Of a stretch of 64,000 nt of DNA, positions 12,448 to 48,406 are shown one piece after another (position 1 is the stretch's first letter; every line of letters begins with the position of its first letter). The translations under genes were made by a program, and so were the position numbers. Below the pieces are notes generated by a model, which made no database searches, was not told the origin of the DNA, and was given only the letters and a program-made list of their open reading frames with translations. This stretch comes from Marinosulfonomonas sp. Lineage in GTDB: Bacteria; Pseudomonadota; Alphaproteobacteria; Rhodobacterales; Rhodobacteraceae. The stretch lies in contig JBPOFA010000016.1 of the NCBI GenBank assembly GCA_051251595.1, positions 10,626 through 74,625 of the forward strand. The letters are read 5' to 3'.

Positions 12448-12848
12448 TAAAAAATACTAACAACCTGAATCGGTGACAACGGGCGAGGTCGATTAACGCC
12501 GGAATTTATGTTGTTGCCGGCGGGGGCCGTTCTCGCACTCGGCCGGCGCATCGCAGCTGATCAGCAAAGGCACTTCTTTTCAGGACGTAGCCGCAATCTA
12601 CCCGGTCTTTGATCTGGGGGCATTGTCCGGTGTTGTGCCTAGGCCGTCGAACGTCCCCGAATCATGATCACCGGATCTGCTGCAAAAAATGCGCATGCGA
12701 CGCAGCCATGACTTGGCTTGAGGTGACTAAAATTTAGGCATTACCAACTGAAACTACATTGAAAATACAAATAGTATTTTTAACGTGGACGAGAAAAAAA
12801 CACACTGTTAACGTTCGGTGACAATTAAACGACAATCAGGGAAATGTA

Positions 12849-14600
12849 ATGAAAGTACTTAAACTCTCGAAGTCGGCTCTCCAAACTACGGCTATTTGCA
12901 CGGCGATGGTGCTTTTGCAGGCGGGTGGCGCAATGGCCGCCGACGTGCAAAAGGGCGGGACCCTCAAAATCGTTGGTACGGCTGATCTGGATCACTTTGA
13001 CCCGACAAGTGCGGCACTTGTGACCACGAACAACTTTCTGCGTGCGACGCAGCGGACCTTGATCGGGTACAATTCCTCTACGGATGAAGATGAGCGTATT
13101 CGCCCTGTTGGCGATCTCGCAGTCGAAGTGCCTCAGCCGACCAATGGCGGTCTGACCTATACATTTAAGTTGCGTGATGGCGCGATGTGGAATGCGCCAA
13201 CCGGTGCGCGGCAAATCACATCGGTTGACTTTGAACGCGGCATGAAACGCATGTGCAACCCTGCGCTTGGCTCGGCTGCTCTTACATATTTTGTAACGCT
13301 GATCGACGGCATGGAAAGCTTCTGTGACGGGTTTGCAGAGGTAGAGCCAACCGTTGAGGCCATGAAGGCCTATATTCAGGACAACGATATTTCTGGCATT
13401 ACCCAGCCTGACGACTTGACCGTTGAAATCACCCTGACTGAAACGGCGGGCGACTTTGTTTACATGGTGTCTTTGCCGACATCCTCACCTGCACCGATCG
13501 AAGTTCTGGATTTCATGCCAGACGGACCGGAGTATCGTGAAAATTACATTGCGTCGGGCCCTTACACACCTGTTGATTATGTGCCCGATGGATCGCTGAA
13601 ACTGGATCGTAACCCAGCTTGGTCTGCCGATGCGGATCCACTGCGCGGTGCCAATGTTGACGCTATTGAAATCACCTTTGGCGTGCAGCCCGACGCGGCG
13701 ATCCAACAGCTTCAGGCTGGCAATGCTGACATGGTGTATGACATCACGATCCCTCCCGCTATTCTGTCACTTTTGACCGCGACTGCGGATCCCAAAGTGA
13801 TGACAATGTCTGCTGGGCGGACCGCGTTCTTGTTCATTAATACAGTTTCCGAAAACAACAATGGCGCGTTGAAAGACCTGCGGGTGCGTCAGGCGTTGAA
13901 CTACGCCATCGACAAAGCGGCGCTGGTTCAGCAAATGGGTGGCCCAACAGTTGCGCAACCGCAAAACGGCATCTTTGGGCCGGGCGTTCTGGGCTTCCAT
14001 GAGTTCGATCTGTACCCATCAGAAGGGCACGCAGGCGACCCGGAAAAAGCCCGCGCGCTTTTGGCTGAAGCTGGGTATCCTGATGGCATCACGCTGAAAA
14101 TGCCGTACCGGAACCAGAACAACATGCCGGAAATCGCCCAGACCATTCAGGCGGCCATGGCAGAGGCAGGGATCACGCTTGAGCTGACACCTGTAACGGC
14201 CTCGGACTACTATTCCAAGTTCATGACCAATCCGCTTAACACGCAAGAAGGTGCTTGGGACATTGCGCCTGTAGGTTGGGCCCCTGACTGGGTCGGCGGG
14301 GCTGCACGTTCTGTTTTCCAGCCGCAATTCTCGTATGACGGTCGTCACCAGACCTATAACTACACGGACTACAACAACGACAAAGCCAACGAGATTGCCA
14401 AACAGGCGATCAACGCGACCACGCCTGAAGATGCTGCAAAGCTTTGGGGCGAAGTCGATGTCTTGGTCATGACAGATGCGCCGGTCGTTCCGTATTACAC
14501 GGAACAGGTCGTTCTTTATCGCGGTCCTGCCGTAGAGAACTTCCAGCCATACGCTCTTGGTGGGCAAGGGGACTGGACGAACGTTTGGCTTAACCGCTGA
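12849..14600 (+). CDS. ABC transporter substrate-binding protein, family 5 (oligopeptide/dipeptide type)
   Basis: 583 aa with signal peptide MKVLKLSKSALQTTAICTAMVLLQAGGAMA. Size and composition are typical of DppA/OppA-like SBPs. Confidence 0.9.
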   Translation: MKVLKLSKSALQTTAICTAMVLLQAGGAMAADVQKGGTLKIVGTADLDHFDPTSAALVTTNNFLRATQRTLIGYNSSTDEDERIRPVGDLAVEVPQPTNGGLTYTFKLRDGAMWNAPTGARQITSVDFERGMKRMCNPALGSAALTYFVTLIDGMESFCDGFAEVEPTVEAMKAYIQDNDISGITQPDDLTVEITLTETAGDFVYMVSLPTSSPAPIEVLDFMPDGPEYRENYIASGPYTPVDYVPDGSLKLDRNPAWSADADPLRGANVDAIEITFGVQPDAAIQQLQAGNADMVYDITIPPAILSLLTATADPKVMTMSAGRTAFLFINTVSENNNGALKDLRVRQALNYAIDKAALVQQMGGPTVAQPQNGIFGPGVLGFHEFDLYPSEGHAGDPEKARALLAEAGYPDGITLKMPYRNQNNMPEIAQTIQAAMAEAGITLELTPVTASDYYSKFMTNPLNTQEGAWDIAPVGWAPDWVGGAARSVFQPQFSYDGRHQTYNYTDYNNDKANEIAKQAINATTPEDAAKLWGEVDVLVMTDAPVVPYYTEQVVLYRGPAVENFQPYALGGQGDWTNVWLNR

Positions 14601-39728: not shown

Positions 39729-40976
39729 TCAAGATCTTTGGGTCAGTTTCCGGATGACCGGGGCGCCCCAGGTGAGCGCCATGACAAGAAGCCCAATAGC
39801 GGCAGCGAGTGCAGAGATATAGTAGGGTGAGCGTATCGAAAGGCTCATCAATCCGCCGCCAGCCAACGACATGACTCCGCCTGCCAGACAGAAGATCGCG
39901 GTGGTGACGCCCATGATCCAACCTTGATCGGCCTCGCTTACGCTTCCGGAAAACAGGCCCAAAAGGGTCGGGTATGAAACCCCAAAGAAAAAGTAGAACA
40001 AGAAGACCGGAATATAGGAAATCGGTCCGATAGTGATGAACACAAAGGCAAGCGCACAGATTACCATGATGACAAGGCTCGTTCCGACAATGGTGCCTTT
40101 GCCCACGCGTTTCTGGACTGGATTGACAAGGAAAGTGCTGCTGGTCGCCAGGGCGATCCCAATCACAAGCATGGCGACGCTGCCCCCGACAACGCCATAG
40201 CCAAATGCGCTCGTCAGATAGTTGTCGACAAATATGTAAAACGTGACATTTGCGATCATGAACAAGCTATAGACAGGCAGCAGTTTCATAACGACAGGGA
40301 ATTCCCTGACCCGGTTTAGGCTTTCAAAAATCTCGGCCGGGCGAAAGGCGTACGGAACGCGTTCGGTCCGAATGTCATTGAAACATAACGACACAAGTAT
40401 CATCGCGATCAACACCAATGCAAAGGCCGCATAAAAGGGCAATGTGTAGCTTGCCAGGGTACCGATAATGTCTGGATCTGCCAAAACGCCGCCAATGATC
40501 GGGCCACCGACCAGGCCGAAACTGACGCCCGTGACGATGTATCCCATGTTCCGATCCCGATCCGCGTCGTCGGTACTGCCGTCAATCATCGCTGCTTGGG
40601 CGATCGGTTGGTTTCCTGCGGTAAAGCCAGTAATCGCGCGTCCAAGCACCAACAGCCACAGACTGTTGAGCATGATCGACGCGATGGTGATGGCATACCC
40701 CACCAAGGCGCCTGCAAGACAGATCAACAGGGCATTCTTGCGTCCGATCGAGTCAGACAGCCTTGCGATATAGATCACCCCGAAAAACCAGGAAAGAAAG
40801 AAGATGCCTACAACCAAACCAAAATCGAAATGCCGCATCCCGATTGACGTATCCGTGGGCAAGAAGCTGGATTTCGGGTTCATGATCATCGCGTTTATGA
40901 TCGGAAATACAAGCCCTTGGCCGATCAGGTCGACAAAAACGACGAACATAAGGGTAATCTTTACCAACGGTGTCAT
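39729..40976 (-). CDS. MFS transporter (DHA1/TetA-like efflux type)
   Basis: 415 aa with about 12 TM segments and MFS motif A, ARLSDSIGRKN, after TM2. Confidence 0.85.
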   Translation of the reverse strand: MTPLVKITLMFVVFVDLIGQGLVFPIINAMIMNPKSSFLPTDTSIGMRHFDFGLVVGIFFLSWFFGVIYIARLSDSIGRKNALLICLAGALVGYAITIASIMLNSLWLLVLGRAITGFTAGNQPIAQAAMIDGSTDDADRDRNMGYIVTGVSFGLVGGPIIGGVLADPDIIGTLASYTLPFYAAFALVLIAMILVSLCFNDIRTERVPYAFRPAEIFESLNRVREFPVVMKLLPVYSLFMIANVTFYIFVDNYLTSAFGYGVVGGSVAMLVIGIALATSSTFLVNPVQKRVGKGTIVGTSLVIMVICALAFVFITIGPISYIPVFLFYFFFGVSYPTLLGLFSGSVSEADQGWIMGVTTAIFCLAGGVMSLAGGGLMSLSIRSPYYISALAAAIGLLVMALTWGAPVIRKLTQRS

Positions 40977-41144
40977 CTTGTGCCTCCCATGAGGTCGTTT
41001 CCTCGTAATTTCGTTTCTTCATGCTCGCGACGGTATTTGCGAAACCCTTCGATTTGGTCCCCAATTTCCCTTATCTCCGTGCGGCGCCCTGTGTTGGCGG
41101 AATTACCAAAGGACTCGTTGCACTGAACAAGGGAACGGCGGCAC

Positions 41145-41163
41145 GGCCAATCTGTGATTGGCC
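41145..41163. promoter_or_regulatory. Perfect 7-5-7 inverted repeat GGCCAAT-ctgtg-ATTGGCC in the MFS/acyltransferase divergent region
   Basis: Read directly from the sequence. No cognate regulator gene is evident nearby. Confidence 0.25.
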
Positions 41164-41277
41164 TACAATTCCACAAAAGAGCCTTCTTTGAAACAGGCAA
41201 GAATACTCAAGCGATTTGATGCATTAGCGATCAATTTAACACTCAACCGCCTCACACGCCCAAGTCTTTTTACCAGA

Positions 41278-41295
41278 GTGTCATCTATGTGTTGC
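41278..41295 (+). promoter_or_regulatory. Pho-box-like direct repeat GTGTCAT-ctat-GTGTTGC upstream of the acyltransferase gene
   Basis: 7-4-7 arrangement on the coding strand. It resembles the CTGTCAT-N4-CTGTCAT PhoB consensus and the better box at 44944..44961. It ends only 23 nt before ATG 41319. Confidence 0.35.
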
Positions 41296-41318
41296 GTGGC
41301 CATGCATAGTCATGGGGC

Positions 41319-42197
41319 ATGAGGGAAAGCATTGAACCTTTGATCGTGGAACGCGCGCCATGGTTGGCCAGGCAAGGCCTGTGGCCAAGGGCGGCGCGTG
41401 GTGTTCTGGACCAGATCCTGGGCTATGACGAGGTCGTGTCTTTGGCCGAAACGCTGAAGGACAAATCCGCCCCCGGCATCATGAACACCGTCGCGGACCG
41501 TTTGGCCAAGGATGTGCATGTGACCGGTTTGGAAAATATGCCCAAGACCGGCGCTGCGTTGGTTGTGGCAAACCATCCGACCGGCATCGGGGATGGTATC
41601 ATGCTGTGGCACGCTTTGCGTCAGCTGCGCCCTGACATGTTTTTCTACGCGAATTCAGATATTTTGCGCATCTTGCCCCAGATGGGGGATTTGATCGCCC
41701 CGGTAGAGTGGCGTCATGAAAAACGCAGCCACACCAAAGCCCGGGAAACGATGACCTATACGCGCGCCGCTTTTGATGCGGGGCGTCTTGGGGTGATTTT
41801 CCCGTCGGGTCGGCTGGCCAAGCGCCGGGGGCTGACCTTGCATGAACGGCCCTGGATGGGCTCTGCGGCGACCTTGGCGCGCAAGTTTGATTTGCCCGTG
41901 ATCCCGATCAACATTCAAGCCCGCAATTCGGCGCTGTTTTATATGTTTGACTATCTCCACCCGACCTTGCGCGACATTACTTTGTTTCACGAAACGCTCA
42001 ACAAGGACCGGCAGTTTTTTAGGATTACGGTTGGTCGCCCTGTTTCAGCGTCAGAGCTGTCGTCTGACGCCGAAGATGCCACCGCCTATATCAAGCGGGT
42101 GACGCTTCAGGCGGGTGATCCGCAGCTGCATCGCTCTGGCGCTTTGCGGCCTTCTTATTGGCGACGGATCAGCCCAAAGCCGCGGCGTTTGACCTAA
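41319..42197 (+). CDS. Lysophospholipid/lyso-lipid acyltransferase family protein (PlsC-like, COG3176 type)
   Basis: 292 aa with the acyltransferase block LVVANHPTGIGDGIML (His...Asp motif) and FPSGRLAKRR. Divergent from btaB. Confidence 0.65.
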   Translation: MRESIEPLIVERAPWLARQGLWPRAARGVLDQILGYDEVVSLAETLKDKSAPGIMNTVADRLAKDVHVTGLENMPKTGAALVVANHPTGIGDGIMLWHALRQLRPDMFFYANSDILRILPQMGDLIAPVEWRHEKRSHTKARETMTYTRAAFDAGRLGVIFPSGRLAKRRGLTLHERPWMGSAATLARKFDLPVIPINIQARNSALFYMFDYLHPTLRDITLFHETLNKDRQFFRITVGRPVSASELSSDAEDATAYIKRVTLQAGDPQLHRSGALRPSYWRRISPKPRRLT

Positions 42198-42226
42198 GTG
42201 GGCACAGCCTTTGGCGGCGGCCCGTT

Positions 42227-42853
42227 TCAGTTCAGCCGGGTGACGCAGGCATATTGGGCATAGCTGCGCAGCAATGGGGCATGTTCAATTTGCGTGTTGG
42301 CGTGCTGCTGCAAGACCGAACGCAGGCTGTCGCGCGGCTCGACGTGAAACCGCCCAAGCCAGTTGCGCAGCCCCTTGTCGAACCATTCCGGCATGCGGGA
42401 TTGATCGCCAAAATCAACGATATGCAATTCGCCCTTGGGGGCCAGATGGCGCAGCGCCTGATCAATGGCCTGTTCCCATACCGGGATCATCGACACGCAA
42501 TAGGACATGACGATCCGGTCAAACTTTTCCTGGCCGAAGATTTGCAGGGGATCAAAATCGCAGGCATCCGCCAGTCCAAGCTTGGCCCGGCCCCCCAGCT
42601 TTGCGCGGGCAGAGACCAGCATTTCAGACGAAATATCCAACCCATATAGGTTGCAGCCCGGGTAGCGCATGTCGATCTGGTCCAGATTTCGTCCGGTGCC
42701 ACAGGCGATTTCCAGGATATGCATTCCCTGTTCCGGGCGCAGTTGCTTGAGCGCATGATCCCGCCCCAGAAGGTAATATTTGCGCGTCGCATCATAGATC
42801 AGCCGCTGCCGACGGTAGACCTGATCCATCAAAGCTGCATGAGAGTTTGCCAT
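42227..42853 (-). CDS. btaB: Class I SAM-dependent methyltransferase, BtaB-like (DGTS N-methylation)
   Basis: ORF 42227..42994. Start moved to ATG 42853 (MANSHAALMDQVYRRQR), 4 nt after the btaA stop, with AGGGG upstream. SAM motif ILEIACGTGRNL. Size and position match Rhodobacter btaB. Confidence 0.7.
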   Translation of the reverse strand: MANSHAALMDQVYRRQRLIYDATRKYYLLGRDHALKQLRPEQGMHILEIACGTGRNLDQIDMRYPGCNLYGLDISSEMLVSARAKLGGRAKLGLADACDFDPLQIFGQEKFDRIVMSYCVSMIPVWEQAIDQALRHLAPKGELHIVDFGDQSRMPEWFDKGLRNWLGRFHVEPRDSLRSVLQQHANTQIEHAPLLRSYAQYACVTRLN

Positions 42854-42857
42854 AGGA

Positions 42858-44084
42858 TCACCCCTGGAATTCATATAGGTGAAACCCGCCGTAAATGGCG
42901 GATCGATCGTTTTGGAACCCTTTGGCAGAGGCCTCTGTCTGATAGGTCCAGCGGCGCAAGGTTTGATCGGCAACCCGGCCCGGCAAAATGTCATCCGCGC
43001 CGCCTGTGCGAAAGATCACACGCGCGCCCGGGCTGGCTGTGCGGGTGATTTGGTCCCACAGCGCATTCAGTTGCGCATCATTCATCCAATCCTGGGCATC
43101 CAGCAAAACATAGGCCTGTTTTGACCCGCTTGGTTGCCCGGCCAGAACGTCGGTCAATGATCTGTTTAATACGGTCATGCGATCGGCATTGGCACGCAAG
43201 GTTTCGAAGTTCCGGGCCTCTAGATAAGGGGGGACGGCGGCATCTTTTGTGGGTTCATAGCCGCGGGTCACAGCCTGCCAGGCAAAGTAGTTGTCCTGGA
43301 TCGGGAAATCGCAAAACAGTTTGCGGGTTCGTTCTTTTAGCACCGCGACGATATCGCCATCGGCATCAGCGGCCAGCTTGTCATATTGGGCGGGGGGGAT
43401 GCCCAAGCCGAACAGGCTCGCCCTTTGTCGGGCGAGGAATTTCACGAACCCGCTGTCGAAAAGCGGGGCGATCTGCGTGTCGAAAAAGGCGGTTTGCTCT
43501 GCCATGGATTTGGCGTTGAGCAGGCCGGAAAAGTCGACCCGAGCGACTGTGGTGATCAAGTTCACAGCGCCTAGGAACCGCCCCAAAAGCCCTTGGCGAA
43601 ACAGCCCGCGTGCCAGCATGTTCTTACGTGGCCTGGTCAGCGACCAGCCGTCCCAATAAGCGCGGACCTTAGGGTCCAGATGCGGCGCGACGTAGCGGTT
43701 GAAATGCGTGACGTTCGTTTTCAAATCGGCACGCGCCAGCATTTCATACAGCGTTGCATGGTCCGGAACGGTCTGGACGGTGGCCAGTTTCAACTTGTTG
43801 AGCATCACATGCGAGGGGGACAGATCCACCGCAGTGATAGAGGCCGGGCTGGCCGTGAGGTAGGACAAGGCGTTGCAGCCGCCGGACGCGATACAGACAA
43901 GATTGTCGCCAGCGCTTAACTGCAGGGCCTCCATGTCAACCACCGGGTCTTCCCAGATTTGGGCATAGACCAACCCGTGAAACAGCCTGGCAAAAACACG
44001 TTCCAACACGCCTTCGCGGCTGAGCACTGTGTTTTGGTTGACGGCCGCGCCAAGTTGTTCGGTGATCGTTGGTGTCGAGGTCAT
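42858..44084 (-). CDS. btaA: DUF3419 protein, BtaA-like S-adenosylmethionine:diacylglycerol 3-amino-3-carboxypropyl transferase
   Basis: 408 aa. The N-terminal block RLFHGLVYAQIWEDPVVDMEAL...CIASGGCNALSYL...AVDLSPSH is characteristic of DUF3419/BtaA. Followed by a btaB-like gene. Confidence 0.7.
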   Translation of the reverse strand: MTSTPTITEQLGAAVNQNTVLSREGVLERVFARLFHGLVYAQIWEDPVVDMEALQLSAGDNLVCIASGGCNALSYLTASPASITAVDLSPSHVMLNKLKLATVQTVPDHATLYEMLARADLKTNVTHFNRYVAPHLDPKVRAYWDGWSLTRPRKNMLARGLFRQGLLGRFLGAVNLITTVARVDFSGLLNAKSMAEQTAFFDTQIAPLFDSGFVKFLARQRASLFGLGIPPAQYDKLAADADGDIVAVLKERTRKLFCDFPIQDNYFAWQAVTRGYEPTKDAAVPPYLEARNFETLRANADRMTVLNRSLTDVLAGQPSGSKQAYVLLDAQDWMNDAQLNALWDQITRTASPGARVIFRTGGADDILPGRVADQTLRRWTYQTEASAKGFQNDRSAIYGGFHLYEFQG

Positions 44085-44097
44085 GTAGCTGTCCTTG

Positions 44098-44898
44098 CTA
44101 GCTGTCTTGGTTTTCCAGAACTTTTGATTTCTTGTGTTTTTTGGGGGCGGGGGTGTGTGCGGCTGCGCGTTTTTCCCAGTCGATCAGGATGATTTCGCCG
44201 GTTGTCTGTTCGGCAATCGCGGTGCAGCTTTCGACCCAATCCCCGGTGTTGATATAGGTGATGCCTTGGATCTCGCGCATATTCGCGTGATGGATATGGC
44301 CACAGATGACACCATCAAAACCGCCGCGCTTGGCCTCATCTGCCAGCACGTCTTCGTATTGACCGATAAAGCTGACGGCCGCTTTGACCTGGCGTTTCGC
44401 CCATTTCGAAAGCGACCAATATCGCCCGCCCCACAAAGACCGGATGCGGTTGATTTTGGGGTTCACCCAGATCAAAAAGTCATAGGCCGCGTCGCCCAGA
44501 TGGGCCAGCCATTTGGCGTTCATCACAACGGTGTCGAACTGATCCCCGTGGGTGACAAGAAAGCGTTTGCCCTCTAGGCCAATGAATTCAGAGGTTTGCA
44601 CAACTTCGATGCCACCGAAATGCGTGCCAAGATAGTTGCGCATCACCTCGTCATGGTTGCCTGGCACAAACACGACACGGGTTCCTTTGCGGGCTTTGTC
44701 CAGCAGCACCTGCACCACATTGTTGTGGGTTTGCGGCCAGTGCCAGCCCCGCCGGCTCAGCGCCCAGCCGTCAAAGATGTCACCGACGAGGTAAATCGTC
44801 TCTGCGCTGTTTTGCAGAAGGAAATCCGTCAAAAGTTCGGCTTGGCACCCGCGCGTGCCCAGATGCACATCGGAAAGAAAGAGTGTCCTGTACTGCAT
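44098..44898 (-). CDS. plcP: LpxH-family metallophosphoesterase, PlcP-like phospholipase C candidate
   Basis: ORF 44098..44943. Start moved to ATG 44898 (MQYRTLFLSDVHLG), preceded by AAGGGG. Calcineurin-like motifs DVHLG, GDIFDGW, PGNHDE, THGDQFD and CGHIHH. Context with btaAB and a Pho box matches the Sinorhizobium/roseobacter plcP paradigm. Confidence 0.7.
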   Translation of the reverse strand: MQYRTLFLSDVHLGTRGCQAELLTDFLLQNSAETIYLVGDIFDGWALSRRGWHWPQTHNNVVQVLLDKARKGTRVVFVPGNHDEVMRNYLGTHFGGIEVVQTSEFIGLEGKRFLVTHGDQFDTVVMNAKWLAHLGDAAYDFLIWVNPKINRIRSLWGGRYWSLSKWAKRQVKAAVSFIGQYEDVLADEAKRGGFDGVICGHIHHANMREIQGITYINTGDWVESCTAIAEQTTGEIILIDWEKRAAAHTPAPKKHKKSKVLENQDS

Positions 44899-44943
44899 CA
44901 CAGCCCCTTGGATACATTGCTGCGCTCTGTATATCGGGGTCAC

Positions 44944-44961
44944 ATGACACTTAGATGAAAC
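44944..44961 (-). promoter_or_regulatory. Pho box (PhoB-binding direct repeat) of the plcP-btaA-btaB operon
   Basis: The minus strand reads GTTTCAT-ctaa-GTGTCAT (7-4-7). It is followed after 8-10 nt by GATATACA (-10-like), about 22 nt of leader, and AAGGGG-ATG(44898). Confidence 0.55.
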
Positions 44962-45006
44962 AAACGTGATTTGGCGCGGATCAAAGCCGCTGGCCAGATT
45001 GGACGT

Positions 45007-45906
45007 TCAGTCTTTGCGTGCGATTTGCAAATCTTGGATTTGTTTCACAAGCTCTTGGCTGTCATCGGGAAACTTTCGCGCAAACAGAACCTTGCGTTTG
45101 ATGGGGGTGCCCTGGCGCGTGCGAAATGCACCGTCTGATTTTAAGACATCGACGTGGTCCTGCGATATCATCGCAGGGTTGCTGCCTCCTGCGGTCCAGT
45201 CTGTGTAGGTCAGTGCGGGTTTGATGGAGCCGACATCTGCCCAGTTGCATAGGATGGTCTGAAAAAACATTTCATCTGGGCAAATTGTGTTCTTGAAAAA
45301 GTTAACCATCTCTTGGTGCTGTTCAATCATCTCAATGACATGATCAACCGCGCGCACGGGCAGGGCCCACCACGTGCCTCCACCAAAAGGAGTGAAAGGA
45401 GCAAGCGATCTTTTGTAGGGGCGGCGAACCAAAAACTGAAATAGCGGGCGCGACAGTTCATACAGCTTTCGGCGCAGGGCCATGTCTCTGGATGGAATGA
45501 AACGTCTTAGCCGTTTCAGGGGCTTGGTTGGTGAAGGCATTTTTTCGGTGTCGATAAAGATACCGGTGTCGGCCTGTTCAAAAAATGCCTTGATCTGCTG
45601 CAAACTGAAAATCGGGTAATCCGCACCACTGAGCAGGACGAAGTAATCGAATGGGATTTCTTTGTAGGCTTTGGCCTCTTCCATTAGCAAAAGGATCGCT
45701 TCGACTTGCGAATACTCTCCCCAATAGACCGGAATTCGGCGTTTTGTGAATTGGGCGTTGGCACCCGTCGGCAGTTCGAATTGTCCAATATCGGATTTCG
45801 CATCGATATGGACGAAGGCCCGGCAATCCTTGTCGCAAATGGCGCCTACCAGCCGCCCCAGATGAGCCGGTCGGTCGTGGGCAAGAACGAGAAATGCTAT
45901 TTTCAT
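45007..45906 (-). CDS. Glycosyltransferase family 14-like protein (core-2/I-branching 'Branch' domain)
   Basis: 299 aa. N-terminus MKIAFLVLAHDRPAHLGRLV...FVHIDAKSD and overall length are typical of bacterial GT14/Branch-domain proteins. No TM segment or signal peptide is obvious. Confidence 0.65.
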   Translation of the reverse strand: MKIAFLVLAHDRPAHLGRLVGAICDKDCRAFVHIDAKSDIGQFELPTGANAQFTKRRIPVYWGEYSQVEAILLLMEEAKAYKEIPFDYFVLLSGADYPIFSLQQIKAFFEQADTGIFIDTEKMPSPTKPLKRLRRFIPSRDMALRRKLYELSRPLFQFLVRRPYKRSLAPFTPFGGGTWWALPVRAVDHVIEMIEQHQEMVNFFKNTICPDEMFFQTILCNWADVGSIKPALTYTDWTAGGSNPAMISQDHVDVLKSDGAFRTRQGTPIKRKVLFARKFPDDSQELVKQIQDLQIARKD

Positions 45907-45923
45907 TATTGCCTCTTGGAAAG

Positions 45924-45963
45924 CTGTAACATGCGTTTCATTTAAGGTCTGTGGGCCTGTCCA
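45924..45963 (+). promoter_or_regulatory. Four 11-bp-phased Pho-box-like heptamers (CTGTAAC / GTTTCAT / GGTCTGT / CTGTCCA)
   Basis: The plus strand reads CTGTAACatgcGTTTCATttaaGGTCTGTgggcCTGTCCA. It starts 18 nt from the GT14 start codon but in inverse orientation to that gene, and lies about 180 nt upstream of gadB in forward orientation. Confidence 0.3.
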
Positions 45964-46142
45964 CCTTTAAGATCACGAATGATTATTTGCCACAACTGGA
46001 AACGAATTACGGTGCTGCGCGGTATGGGGCAAATGTTGCGGCTGTTGTCCTTGCAGTCTGTTTTGAACTGGGCCACCATCGATGAAAACGCAACGTGGCC
46101 AAAGTTTAGGCAAGATTTTCGATCTATTTAAAGGGTGCATCC

Positions 46143-47528
46143 ATGACAACGTCGCCGATCCAAAACCCCGATGAAGAAACCTATGGCGCAGAGGACATGT
46201 TGCAGCCTTTGCCCAAAACGGCGTTCCCGCAGGCCGGGCGGAACCCGCGCCACGCTTTTGCTGGAATACGCGATGAGCTGTTGCTGGATGGAAATGCCCG
46301 CCAGAATCTGGCGACGTTTTGCCAGACATGGGAAGAGCCAGAGCTGCACCAGTTGATGGATCTGTGCATCGACAAGAATATGGTCGACAAGGATGAATAT
46401 CCCCAGACCGCAGAAATCGAGGCGCGCTGTGTGCGGATGCTGGCGGATCTTTGGCATGCGCCGGACGCGGCGGATGGGGTTGGCACCTCTACGACCGGAT
46501 CCTCAGAGGCGGCGATGCTGGGGGGGCTGGCGATGAAACGTCGGTGGGAAGCCCGGCAACGCGCGGCAGGAAAATCGACGGACAAGCCCAATCTGATCAC
46601 GGGGCCGGTGCAGATTTGCTGGCATAAATTCACCCGCTATTGGGATATCGAACATCGGGAAATTCCGATGGAAAACGGGCGGATGTTGATGACGCCGGAA
46701 GAGGTGCTGGCGCTGTGCGACGAATACACGATCGGCGTTGTGCCGACGCTTGGTGTGACGTTCACCGGCCAATACGAACCGGTTCAGGCGGTGTCTGACG
46801 CGTTGGACACGTTCCAAGCAGAGACCGGGCTTGATATTCCGATCCATGTTGACGGGGCCAGCGGGGCGTTTTTGGCGCCGTTCTGTGCACCGGATTTGGC
46901 CTGGGATTTCAGGCTGCCCCGGGTGCGGTCGATCAATGCTTCGGGCCATAAATTCGGCCTTGCCCCGCTTGGGGTTGGCTGGGTTTTGTGGCGCAGCCCC
47001 GCAGATTTGCCAGAAGAAATGGTGTTTTACGTCAATTACTTAGGCGGCAATATGCGCGACATCGCGTTGAACTTTTCCCGCCCCGGCGGGCAGATCGTTT
47101 GCCAATATTACAATTTCCTGCGTCTGGGTCATAGCGGGTATCAGGCGGTGCATGGGGCTTGTTACGAAACGGCCCAGTTTTTGGCAGATGAAATCGCTAA
47201 AATGGGTCCGTTTGAAATGATTTACAGCGGGGACCCGGGCGAAGGCATCCCTTGTCTGTGCTGGACGCTCAAAGACGGGGCCGATCTGGGCTATTCGCTG
47301 TTTGACCTTGCCGATCGCCTGCGGGCAACGGGGTGGCAGGTGCCGGCCTATACGTTGCCCTCCAACTGTCAGGATCGCGCCGTTCAGCGCATTTTGGTGC
47401 GCAATGGGGTCAGCCGTGATTTGGCATCCTTGCTGTTGCAGGACATGAAATCAGCGCTGGAGCATCTGGGCAAACATCCGCGTCAGGCGCCATTGGGCGA
47501 TGAGGATGCGTCCGGCTTTCATCACTGA
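46143..47528 (+). CDS. gadB: Glutamate decarboxylase (PLP-dependent, GadA/GadB type)
   Basis: 461 aa. Motifs [33 protein letters not shown] and the PLP-lysine segment [18 protein letters not shown] are diagnostic of bacterial GAD. Confidence 0.9.
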
Positions 47529-47545
47529 TGCGCCGGGGCTGATTG

Positions 47546-48406
47546 ATGGGCACACCAACAAACGAGTCCCCTGTCCTAGAAATCGGGGCAGGGCCCTTTG
47601 TTACGCTGCGCCAATATGGGGTGGCGGAAGGCCTGTCGATTTGGCGGGCACGGCACCACCGCAAGGGGATCGGCGCGCAAGCCGTCGCGGCCGGTTTTTG
47701 GCAGTCGCGCCGCGTCAACGCGTTGATGGGGACGTTGTTCGCGATTGGATCGCTGTTCTTTGTGATCGGCGCGGCCCTATCATTGTGGCCGGGTGTTGCG
47801 CAGTCCGCGGGTTTATCGGTCTCTCAGGTTAATATTCTGTTTTTTGTGGGGTCGGCGTTCTTCACGACGGCCGCCTATCTTCAGCTTGTACAGGCCGCGA
47901 ACGCCCCGCCGCATCCGGGGCAGCCGCCCGCAACGCGCGGTTTCAAATGGTTTGGCTGGCGGCCTTATGATCCGGGCTGGATCGCGAGTGTGGCGCAGTT
48001 CGCAGGGACGTTGCTGTTCAATGTGAACACCTATGACGGGCTAAATGGCGGGGGAAGCTGGCTGAGCCAGGATTTCAGGATTTGGGTGCCAGATTTTGTC
48101 GGGTCGATTTTGTTTCTGATCTCTGGCTATCTGGTCTGGATCGAGACCTGCCACAAATGGTTTGCCTGGCTTCCACAGGAATTGGATTGGTGGATCGTGG
48201 CGGTCAATTTTCTGGGCTGCGTGTTCTTTATGATCTCTGCCTGTTTGGCCTTTGTGCCACCCGGCGGGATCGGGGCGGGGGCGTTGGCCTTGTCCACGGA
48301 ATTGCTTTTGGCCGGGGCGGTCTGCTTTTTCATCGGGGCGCTTTTGTTGGTGGTCGAGGCGGCAACGAAGGCCCCCAGCCAAGCGGTTGCCGGGCTGGGG
48401 CGCTGA
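47546..48406 (+). CDS. Integral membrane protein with six internally repeated helices (YrhK-like repeats), function unknown
   Basis: Starts 17 nt after the gadB stop. Six hydrophobic helices each carry a small-x-x-aromatic signature: AIGSLFF, FVGSAFF, FAGTLLF, FVGSILF, FLGCVFF and LAGAVCFF. Confidence 0.6.
   Translation: MGTPTNESPVLEIGAGPFVTLRQYGVAEGLSIWRARHHRKGIGAQAVAAGFWQSRRVNALMGTLFAIGSLFFVIGAALSLWPGVAQSAGLSVSQVNILFFVGSAFFTTAAYLQLVQAANAPPHPGQPPATRGFKWFGWRPYDPGWIASVAQFAGTLLFNVNTYDGLNGGGSWLSQDFRIWVPDFVGSILFLISGYLVWIETCHKWFAWLPQELDWWIVAVNFLGCVFFMISACLAFVPPGGIGAGALALSTELLLAGAVCFFIGALLLVVEAATKAPSQAVAGLGR

What the first reader, a model, noticed from the sequence alone, without database searches (positions are those of the whole stretch)
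41278..45963. Phosphate-stress lipid-remodelling island with three Pho-box-like sites
The genes GT14-like, plcP-like, btaA and btaB are co-oriented on the minus strand with short gaps of 108, 13 and 4 nt. A lyso-lipid acyltransferase gene is divergent. A good Pho box (GTTTCAT-ctaa-GTGTCAT) with a correctly spaced -10-like element precedes plcP. A weaker one (GTGTCAT-ctat-GTGTTGC) precedes the acyltransferase. Four phased heptamers lie beyond the GT14 gene. Established: PlcP-type phospholipase C releases diacylglycerol from phospholipids under P limitation, and BtaA/BtaB convert DAG to the betaine lipid DGTS. The combination seen here puts degradation, head-group synthesis and two extra lipid enzymes under one putative PhoB regulon.
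Basis: partly seen in the sequence, partly recalled or inferred. Interest (0 to 1): 0.6.

Follow-up and report, generated by a model that had tools for sequence, protein, structure and literature searches.

The report
Phosphate-starvation betaine-lipid operon plus acyltransferase
A marine Rhodobacteraceae genome carries the already described phosphate-starvation operon plcP-btaA-btaB, which swaps phospholipids for the phosphorus-free lipid DGTS; beside it lie a separately Pho-controlled acyltransferase and an uncharacterised glycosyltransferase, so the core is ordinary and only the two side genes are new details.

Summary
All the genes and the gaps of 108, 13 and 4 nt are real. plcP-btaA-btaB behind a Pho box is the published 'type 1' cluster (Sebastián 2016, PMC4796936). 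This scan has already noted the same module in at least 10 other genomes.

- **Site 1 (plcP)** is a good PhoB site. It scores 9.7 bits on a matrix built from pstS promoters. It sits at the same distance from the ATG in most plcP orthologues. It is the conserved block in two syntenic metagenome contigs.
- **Site 2 (acyltransferase)** scores weakly (4.5 bits). However, 18 of 29 orthologues carry a Pho box ending exactly 18-20 nt before the ATG. This predicts a leaderless, PhoB-activated mRNA.
- **The acyltransferase** is not OlsA. It is an HX5D enzyme of the SqdA/SalA class whose orthologues co-occur with sqdB, and this genome has no sqdB. It converges on btaB rather than being divergent.
- **Site 3 (four heptamers)** is not supported. 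It points towards gadB, only two heptamers score, and it is lost in the closest relatives.
- **GT14** is a true GT14 fold. It sits next to plcP only in a small clade, and there is no evidence of Pho control or of a lipid role.

The parts
44098..44898 (-). plcP: PlcP-type (LpxH-like) metallophosphoesterase, 266 aa, first gene of the operon
   Evidence: PF00149 Metallophos. It is 63-68% identical to orthologues in 13 of 300 family genera, 12 of which are followed by btaA (10 of these also show btaB within the fetched flank). The ATG 44898 start with AAGGGG 7 nt upstream is conserved in L166 and L167.
42858..44084 (-). btaA: SAM:diacylglycerol 3-amino-3-carboxypropyl transferase
   Evidence: PF11899 DUF3419 at 344.7 bits, E 1e-102. 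It lies 13 nt after plcP.
42227..42853 (-). btaB: SAM-dependent N-methyltransferase completing DGTS
   Evidence: Class I methyltransferase domains. The ATG at 42853 lies 4 nt after the btaA stop. Orthologues are 58-69% identical downstream of btaA in the related loci.
44944..44961 (-). Pho box of plcP (GTTTCAT ctaa GTGTCAT); -10-like TATACA at 44933-44928
   Evidence: 9.7 bits on the family pstS matrix; 232 of 8.37 million genome positions score as high; shuffle p 0.009. This is equivalent to about the top 1.7% of 2175 upstream regions. It is the conserved block in alignment A1. Eleven of the 13 close plcP orthologues have their best oriented site 39-66 nt from the ATG; the other two lie at 87 and 113 nt.
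41319..42197 (+). HX5D lyso-lipid acyltransferase (SqdA/SalA/OlsF-N class), convergent with btaB; probably an orphan SqdA
   Evidence: PF01553 and PF19576. It has H86-PTGIG-D92 and FPSGRL. It is below every NCBIfam cut-off. Orthologues occur in 41 of 120 family genomes. They co-occur with sqdB in 16 of 22 genomes, against 25 of 98 without sqdB. At class level the figures are 5 of 12 against 6 of 238.
41267..41295 (+). Pho box of the acyltransferase: TTTTTAC caga GTGTCAT ctat GTGTTGC; CATAGT at 41305-41310; ATG at 41319 (predicted leaderless mRNA)
   Evidence: 4.5 bits, weak on its own. However, 18 of 29 orthologues have their best site ending 18-20 nt before the conserved ATG.
45007..45906 (-). 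GT14 (Core-2/I-branching type) glycosyltransferase, 299 aa, no transmembrane segment; function unknown; not shown to belong to the regulon
   Evidence: PF02485. The AF2 model has pLDDT 91.8. Best folds are human XylT1 and C2GnT-L at TM 0.73-0.74. No orthologue in 40 relatives. Two homologues of 69-70% lie in the same gadB<>GT14-plcP synteny (btaA is also seen on L166; L167 ends within plcP).
45924..45963 (+). Four 11-bp-phased heptamers; probably not a functional Pho array
   Evidence: They are oriented towards gadB (197 nt away). The first pair scores 5.5 bits on the family matrix and 10.1 bits on the 10-site own-genome matrix; pairs 2-3 and 3-4 score -8.9 and -17.3. They are not conserved in L166 or L167, where an indel breaks the phase. 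No gadB orthologue has a site.

Best explanation
Two independent PhoB-activated transcription units lie tail to tail.

(1) plcP-btaA-btaB is one operon. Under phosphate starvation, PhoB~P binds the box at 44961-44944, which takes the place of a -35 element 10 nt upstream of TATACA. It drives a transcript with a leader of about 23 nt. PlcP removes the phosphorylated head group from phospholipids to give diacylglycerol, and BtaA and BtaB convert that into the phosphorus-free betaine lipid DGTS.

(2) The convergent acyltransferase gene has its own Pho box, which ends 23 nt before the ATG. Transcription should therefore start at or within a base or two of the start codon, giving a leaderless mRNA. 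The enzyme is an HX5D lyso-lipid acyltransferase. It is most probably an orphan SqdA-type enzyme that acylates a phosphorus-free lyso-lipid, for example scavenged sulfoquinovosyl-glycerol or -monoacylglycerol.

GT14 and the four heptamers upstream of it are not demonstrably part of this regulon.

Shown here: gene identities, site geometry, matrix scores and conservation. Inferred: PhoB binding, induction, the transcription start sites, the lipid products and the acyltransferase substrate.
For: - Domains fit the proposed roles.
- The type 1 plcP-btaAB arrangement with a Pho box is published, and plcP deletion and complementation with lipid analysis were done in Phaeobacter sp. MED193 (PMC4796936).
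- An unseeded Gibbs sampler run on 30 pstS upstream regions recovered TGTCATAAAACTGTTAC.
- The resulting matrix finds phnG, a PHO4/Pit transporter, a phnC-like ABC gene, solute-binding proteins and a 5'-nucleotidase in this genome, so it captures the real regulon.
- The plcP site scores 9.7 bits with p 0.009. It is positionally conserved in the orthologues and in alignment A1.
- The acyltransferase box lies at a fixed 18-20 nt from the ATG in 18 of 29 orthologues whose flanks are otherwise unalignable. The binomial p against a uniform null is 1e-22.
- 26 of the 29 orthologues show ATG at the aligned start, and none shows a consistent Shine-Dalgarno sequence.
- HX5D and FPxGxx motifs are present.
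- S. meliloti sqdA is PhoB-induced and has a Pho box.
- The acyltransferase orthologues co-occur with sqdB.
Against:
- The acyltransferase site scores within background: it ranks 147th of 2175 upstream regions.
- A small matrix built from 10 sites of this genome ranks the plcP site lower, at 5.4 bits.
- This genome has no sqdB; the best match is 32 bits. In addition, 25 of 98 family genomes without sqdB carry the acyltransferase orthologue, so the enzyme may use another substrate.
- I could not compare the protein directly with a characterised SqdA or SalA.
- The positional statistics treat related genomes as independent and so overstate significance.
Confidence: 0.78

Rival explanations
1. 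One reading: one PhoB regulon with three Pho boxes covers GT14, plcP, btaA, btaB and the acyltransferase. The four-heptamer array controls GT14.
For: - The four heptamers are 11-bp phased.
- The first pair scores 10.1 bits on a matrix of 10 own-genome sites.
- GT14-plcP adjacency recurs on two metagenome contigs, and btaA follows on the one contig long enough to show it.
- No terminator-like hairpin separates GT14 from plcP.
Against: - The array reads away from GT14. The best site oriented towards GT14 scores -5.7 bits (family matrix) or 2.0 bits (own matrix).
- Heptamer pairs 2-3 and 3-4 score -8.9 and -17.3 bits.
- L166 and L167, whose GadB is 93-94% identical, have lost both heptamers and the 11-bp phase.
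- The GT14 upstream region ranks 1641st of 2175.
Confidence: 0.12
2. GT14 is a new kind of lipid glycosyltransferase. It would use the diacylglycerol released by PlcP, or DGTS itself, to make a phosphorus-free glycolipid, taking the place that the GT4 Agt or GT21 Pgt enzymes hold next to plcP in other bacteria.
For: - It occupies the position next to plcP in three lineages whose GT14 proteins are only 69-70% identical.
- Glycosyltransferases are the commonest plcP neighbours.
- The model is confident and conserved residues are intact, including the invariant P210/E212 and A276-R277-K278.
- No searched paper combines GT14 with PlcP.
Against: - The three lineages are close relatives (GadB 93-94% identical), so the shared synteny may be inherited rather than selected.
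- None of the 13 other plcP-btaAB loci has the gene.
- There is no Pho box and no membrane anchor.
- More distant homologues (43-45%) lie in polysaccharide clusters with Wzy and GT2, or stand alone.
- Structural neighbours act on peptides and glycans, not on lipids.
Confidence: 0.13
3. The acyltransferase is not an SqdA. It serves the neighbouring pathway or aminolipids, for example by re-acylating lyso-DGTS or a lyso-aminolipid under P stress.
For: - It sits next to btaB.
- The genome lacks sqdB.
- Most carriers of the orthologue (25 of 41) also lack sqdB.
- HX5D relatives include SalA and the OlsF N-terminal domain, which act on aminolipids.
Against: - The adjacency to btaB is not conserved. 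In G101, G106 and G135 the orthologue lies on a different contig from plcP-btaAB.
- Only 3 of the 41 carriers of the orthologue among the 120 family genomes searched (G101, G106, G135) also appear among the close plcP orthologues.
- Co-occurrence with sqdB is seven- to 28-fold enriched.
Confidence: 0.25
4. The Pho-box matches are chance, and none of these genes responds to PhoB.
For: A bare consensus match occurs at the chance rate genome-wide. The acyltransferase and gadB sites lie within the background score range.
Against: The sites are conserved in position across orthologues whose flanks have diverged. There are published Pho boxes and P-dependent lipid changes for the same module.
Confidence: 0.04

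Closest known systems
'Type 1' plcP-btaA-btaB cluster of Phaeobacter sp. MED193 (Sebastián et al. 2016, ISME J, PMC4796936)
   Same: Same three genes in the same order and in the same bacterial family. A Pho box lies upstream of plcP. The predicted outcome is also the same: phospholipid is converted to diacylglycerol and then to DGTS under P starvation.
   Different: Here a GT14 gene lies directly upstream of plcP and an HX5D acyltransferase converges on btaB. Neither neighbour is seen within the roughly 1.5-kb flanks fetched for the 13 other family loci examined.
SqdA (Cereibacter sphaeroides; S. meliloti SMc02490), the acyl-ACP-dependent sulfoquinovosyl-(mono)acylglycerol acyltransferase (bioRxiv 10.1101/2022.08.18.504050)
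   Same: It has the HX5D catalytic motif and the FPxGxx block and is about 290 aa long. It has a Pho box upstream. Its orthologues co-occur with alphaproteobacterial-type sqdB. 'Orphan' copies in genomes without sqdBDC have been described.
   Different: No sqdB was found in this genome. The Pho box ends 23 nt from the ATG, against 41 bp in S. meliloti. I could not make a direct sequence comparison with a characterised SqdA.
SalA (R. pomeroyi SPO0716) and the OlsF N-terminal domain
   Same: Both belong to the same HX5D lyso-lipid acyltransferase class. The best NCBIfam hit is the OlsF O-acyltransferase half, at 119 bits.
   Different: The score is far below the OlsF cut-off of 620. Two other paralogues in this genome (on C1 and C56) are much more widespread in the family (about 91 and 77 of 120 genomes), which fits SalA better.
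Agt (GT4) and Pgt (GT21), the glycolipid synthases found next to plcP
   Same: A glycosyltransferase gene adjacent to plcP.
   Different: The family and fold differ: this is GT14, a metal-independent GT-A. The gene lies upstream rather than downstream of plcP. It has no Pho box and there is no evidence of a lipid acceptor.
E. coli / S. meliloti Pho box (two 7-bp direct repeats, 4-bp spacer, replacing the -35 element)
   Same: Same 7-4-7 geometry with a -10 element 9-10 nt downstream. The family consensus CTGTCAT-AAAA-CTGTTAC is close to the classical CTGTCAT.
   Different: The pstS promoters of this family carry three or four phased repeats. The plcP and acyltransferase sites begin with G instead of C and lack the A-rich spacer.

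Membership tests
Pho box (PhoB-binding site) | Two 7-bp direct repeats with 11-bp periodicity, placed about 10 bp upstream of a -10 hexamer | tested here: met
   plcP: box at 44961-44944 with TATACA after 10 nt. Acyltransferase: box at 41278-41295 with CATAGT after 9 nt. Site 3 has no suitably spaced -10 element.
Pho box (PhoB-binding site) | Matches a matrix derived from bona fide pstS promoters of the same clade | tested here: inconclusive
   plcP scores 9.7 bits (top ~1.7%), the acyltransferase 4.5 bits (top 6.9%) and site 3 5.5 bits (top 5.2%). A 10-site own-genome matrix gives 5.4, 2.1 and 10.1 bits respectively.
Pho box (PhoB-binding site) | Conserved in sequence and position upstream of orthologues | tested here: met
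   Met for plcP and for the acyltransferase. Not met for site 3.
Pho box (PhoB-binding site) | PhoB binding and phosphate-dependent induction | not testable with these tools
PlcP (SMc00171-type phospholipase C) | LpxH-like calcineurin-type metallophosphoesterase domain with an N-terminal DxH motif | tested here: met
   PF00149 and weak LpxH model hits. SDVHLG lies at residues 9-14.
PlcP (SMc00171-type phospholipase C) | Phospholipase C activity releasing diacylglycerol | not testable with these tools
   Inferred from the family and from the plcP deletion and complementation work in MED193.
BtaA/BtaB DGTS pathway | A DUF3419 protein followed by a small SAM methyltransferase in one operon | tested here: met
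   PF11899 at 344.7 bits. btaB starts 4 nt after btaA.
OlsA (lyso-ornithine lipid O-acyltransferase) | Reaches the OlsA equivalog model, has HX4D, and is paired with olsB | tested here: not met
   There is no OlsA model hit and the motif is HX5D. The genuine olsB-olsA pair is at G000:C12:299828-301461, at 427.7 and 411.7 bits, both above cut-off.
SqdA | HX5D and FPxGxx motifs | tested here: met
   H86-PTGIG-D92 and FPSGRL.
SqdA | Occurs together with sqdBDC | tested here: not met
   This genome has no sqdB; the best match is 32 bits. Orthologues elsewhere do co-occur with it: 16 of 22 against 25 of 98 in the family, and 5 of 12 against 6 of 238 in the class. Orphan SqdA genes are known.
SqdA | Sequence closer to characterised SqdA than to SalA or OlsF | not tested
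GT14 (CAZy) | Branch domain and a metal-independent GT-A fold like C2GnT-L and XylT1 | tested here: met
   PF02485 at 87.7 bits. Foldseek gives XylT1 at E 2.5e-19 with TM 0.74, and C2GnT-L at TM 0.73.
Diacylglycerol glycosyltransferase (Agt/Pgt-like function) | Transfers a sugar to diacylglycerol; P-stress induced | not testable with these tools
   The only evidence is adjacency to plcP in three close lineages. There is no Pho box.

The most novel reading that the evidence does not exclude
Two separate novel readings remain open.

(a) The GT14 enzyme is the first member of its family to glycosylate a membrane lipid. It would give this small roseobacter clade a previously undescribed phosphorus-free glycolipid alongside DGTS.

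(b) The HX5D acyltransferase is an orphan SqdA expressed from a conserved, leaderless, PhoB-dependent promoter. P-starved roseobacters that lack sqdBDC could then build the anionic sulfolipid SQDG from algal sulfoquinovosyl-glycerol that they scavenge.
Probability: 0.15. Interest if true: 0.65.

Novelty: new member of a known kind. Interest (0 to 1): 0.33.

Why it matters
Lipid remodelling sets the cellular phosphorus quota of abundant marine bacteria. The core module found here adds nothing new to that picture.

Two side results may be useful:
- A Pho box at a fixed 22-24 nt from the ATG of an SqdA-like acyltransferase recurs across many Rhodobacteraceae genera. This predicts a leaderless class of PhoB promoters. 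It also marks this poorly annotated gene ('putative hemolysin' or 'lysophospholipid acyltransferase') as a regular member of the Pho regulon.
- The GT14 gene next to plcP is a cheap knockout candidate for an undescribed surrogate lipid.

Tried and rejected
- **The search for related loci** with the single GT14 protein found nothing in genome contigs.
- **Rfam** found nothing credible in 40900-46300.
- **The promoter/terminator scan** found no site in the intergenic regions and no more hits than in shuffles.
- **OlsA assignment** for the acyltransferase was rejected.
- **An sqdB search** in this genome was negative. An epimerase gene with a nearby Pho-like site (G000:C3:48335) turned out to be a CDP-glucose 4,6-dehydratase in a sugar cluster.
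- **A bare consensus count** showed no genome-wide enrichment.
- **The 10-site own-genome matrix** gave a different ranking of the three sites from the 21-site family matrix. I trust the family matrix and the conservation data more, but I report both.
- **A regulatory RNA reading** of the strong conservation in the gadB-GT14 spacer was considered and dropped. The compared contigs are close relatives (GadB 93-94% identical).
Full report
**Anatomy.** The region holds the following genes:
- MFS transporter, 39729-40976 (-)
- acyltransferase, 41319-42197 (+), PF01553 and PF19576
- btaB, 42227-42853 (-), a SAM methyltransferase
- btaA, 42858-44084 (-), PF11899/DUF3419 at 344.7 bits
- plcP, 44098-44898 (-), Metallophos
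- a GT14/Branch protein, 45007-45906 (-), PF02485
- glutamate decarboxylase gadB, 46143-47528 (+), TIGR01788 at 622 bits

Orthologue alignments support both starts. One detail in the finding is wrong. The acyltransferase converges on btaB, with 29 nt between the stop codons; it is divergent only from the MFS gene. Names attached to homologues place the genome in the Rhodobacteraceae or roseobacter group.

**Is the Pho-box consensus valid in this genome?** The genome has phoR-pstSCAB-phoU-phoB on contig C45. Upstream of pstS lies CTGTTAC-actc-CTGTTAC-ataa-CTGTCGT-aatc-CCATTAC. I fetched 30 pstS upstream regions from relatives. An unseeded Gibbs sampler converged on TGTCATAAAACTGTTAC, usually followed by a third repeat TGTCAC.

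I built a 22-column matrix from 21 of those sites, leaving out this genome's own site. Scanned over the genome, its best intergenic, correctly oriented hits lie upstream of phnG, a PHO4/Pit transporter, a phnC-like ABC gene, solute-binding proteins, a 5'-nucleotidase and a low-molecular-weight phosphatase. The matrix therefore captures the real regulon. A bare consensus count is uninformative: there are 14 hits against about 18 expected. A looser pattern is four-fold enriched in intergenic DNA.

**Site 1, plcP.** GTTTCAT-ctaa-GTGTCAT lies at 44961-44944.
- It scores 9.7 bits. Only 232 of 8.37 million genome positions score as high, and the dinucleotide-shuffle p for the 160-nt upstream region is 0.009.
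- Only 37 of 2175 upstream regions reach that score.
- TATACA follows after 10 nt, and AAGGGG lies 7 nt before the ATG.
- In a sample of 300 family genera, 13 have a 63-68% identical PlcP. Twelve of these are followed by btaA, and btaB is also seen in 10 of them. None has GT14 within the fetched flanks.
- Eleven of the 13 have their best oriented site 39-66 nt from the ATG, against 41 nt here. Twelve of the 13 have shuffle p of 0.08 or less.
- The two closest syntenic contigs are L166 and L167. There the box and the -10 region form the conserved block, while the flanks of L167 have diverged.

This is the published type 1 plcP neighbourhood, with a reported Pho box and with plcP deletion, complementation and lipid analysis in Phaeobacter sp. 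MED193. Earlier notes of this scan describe the same module in at least 10 other genomes.

**Site 2, the acyltransferase.** The site has three phased heptamers, TTTTTAC-caga-GTGTCAT-ctat-GTGTTGC, at 41267-41295. CATAGT follows at 41305-41310 and the ATG at 41319.
- On its own it scores 4.5 bits and ranks 147th of 2175 upstream regions.
- Orthologues of 51-65% identity exist in 41 of 120 family genomes. Their alignments begin at residue 1.
- In 18 of the 29 loci examined, the best oriented site in the 150 nt upstream ends exactly 18-20 nt before the ATG, although the surrounding DNA is unalignable.
- Against a uniform null this gives p of about 1e-22. That figure is inflated because related genomes are not independent.
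- With the classical geometry (box, 10 nt, -10 hexamer, about 7 nt, start), transcription begins at the A of the ATG. 26 of the 29 orthologues show ATG at the aligned start, and none shows a consistent Shine-Dalgarno sequence.

I conclude that this is a conserved, PhoB-dependent and probably leaderless promoter.

**What the acyltransferase is.**
- It is not OlsA. The genuine olsB-olsA pair lies at G000:C12:299828-301461 and passes the NCBIfam equivalog cut-offs.
- The window protein carries H86-PTGIG-D92 (HX5D) and FPSGRL. These are the signature of the SqdA/SalA/OlsF-N group.
- The genome has three such paralogues. The C1 type is in about 91 of 120 family genomes and the C56 type in about 77 of 120. 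One of these is presumably SalA, which is reported as widespread in roseobacters.
- The window type is the rarest, in 41 of 120 genomes. It co-occurs with alphaproteobacterial-type sqdB in 16 of 22 sqdB-positive genomes, against 25 of 98 sqdB-negative ones (Fisher p 8e-5).
- Outside the family, homologues of 33-43% identity occur in 5 of 12 genomes with that sqdB type, against 6 of 238 without it (p 4e-5).
- S. meliloti sqdA is PhoB-induced and has a Pho box, and orphan sqdA genes have been proposed to scavenge sulfoquinovosyl-glycerol.
- This genome has no sqdB.

I therefore read the gene as a probable orphan SqdA, at about 60%. Its adjacency to btaB is not conserved in G101, G106 or G135.

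**Site 3, the four heptamers.** CTGTAAC-atgc-GTTTCAT-ttaa-GGTCTGT-gggc-CTGTCCA lies at 45924-45963.
- It reads on the + strand, towards gadB (197 nt away) and away from GT14.
- The first pair scores 5.5 bits on the family matrix and 10.1 bits on a noisy 10-site own-genome matrix. Pairs 2-3 and 3-4 score -8.9 and -17.3 bits.
- In L166 and L167, whose GadB is 93-94% identical, both heptamers are mutated and a 1-nt deletion breaks the phase. No other site replaces them.
- None of five further gadB orthologues has a site above 1.9 bits.
- Oriented towards GT14, the best score is -5.7 bits (family matrix) or 2.0 bits (own matrix).

I regard site 3 as probably a chance match, with about 15% odds that it is functional.

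**GT14.**
- The 299-aa protein has no membrane segment.
- It folds with high confidence: pLDDT 91.8 and pTM 0.91.
- Its best structural matches are the two solved GT14 enzymes, human xylosyltransferase 1 and C2GnT-L, at TM 0.73-0.74.
- Residues invariant in 31 homologues include P210/E212 and A276-R277-K278. From my own knowledge of C2GnT-L, these probably correspond to the catalytic glutamate and the phosphate-binding basic residues. I did not align them to check.
- No orthologue exists in 40 relatives; only paralogues of 24-31% identity were found.
- Only three close homologues were found among 5.8 billion proteins, at 70%, 69% and 54% identity.
- The two on contigs long enough to read show gadB<>GT14-plcP. 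btaA follows on L166, while L167 ends within plcP.
- More distant homologues sit in polysaccharide clusters or alone.
- The G+C content drops to 50% over the gene, against 55.5% for the genome.
- No searched paper links GT14 with PlcP.

A lipid role is possible but unsupported.

**Distribution.** plcP, btaAB and GT14 were not found in the two same-genus genomes, which are 73% and 91% complete. Nor were they found in 22 of the 23 nearest genera. The module is therefore accessory in this lineage. I saw no mobile-element boundaries.

**Verdict.** The core of the finding is real but already known. Two of the three proposed sites hold. The third site and GT14 are not shown to belong to the regulon. 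The acyltransferase is reassigned to the SqdA/SalA class, and its conserved leaderless Pho promoter is the most useful new detail.

Noticed in passing
window 12814-12835 (-): TTGTCGTTTAATTGTCACCGAA is a Pho-like site scoring 16.0 bits on the pstS matrix. It lies 14 nt upstream of an SBP_bac_5 solute-binding gene (12849-14600, +) but in the reverse orientation. The gene it points to is a GntR/FCD regulator 457 nt away.
   Followed up: partly
G000:C56:159365-160314 (outside the window): A second HX5D acyltransferase paralogue (292 aa) has a 13.8-bit Pho box 50 nt upstream and is followed by glutamate racemase. Two of the three paralogues of this class therefore look PhoB-controlled.
   Followed up: partly
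loci L080-L084, L090 (same order, genus g24): The pstS upstream regions of this sister family lack the TGTCAT repeats. They show repeated GCAACA/TTGCAA motifs instead, for example TGCAACATTTCCGCAACATAAT. This suggests a different PhoB-site consensus or a different regulator.
   Followed up: no
G000:C2:104677-107606 and G000:C12:88687-89409: Very strong Pho boxes precede an 879-aa protein with no Pfam or NCBIfam hit (22.4 bits) and a 194-aa HNH endonuclease (20.6 bits). These would be unexpected Pho-regulon members.
   Followed up: no
window 45907-46142 and L166, L167: GadB is 93-94% identical between the window and the two metagenome contigs, whereas the adjacent GT14 is only 69-70% identical. 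GT14 therefore evolves much faster than its neighbour, or has been exchanged.
   Followed up: no
window 46143-48406: gadB is followed after 14 nt by a 287-aa membrane protein with only a sub-threshold YrhK hit, rather than by a GadC-type antiporter. gadB orthologues are rare in the family, in 5 of 120 genomes.
   Followed up: no
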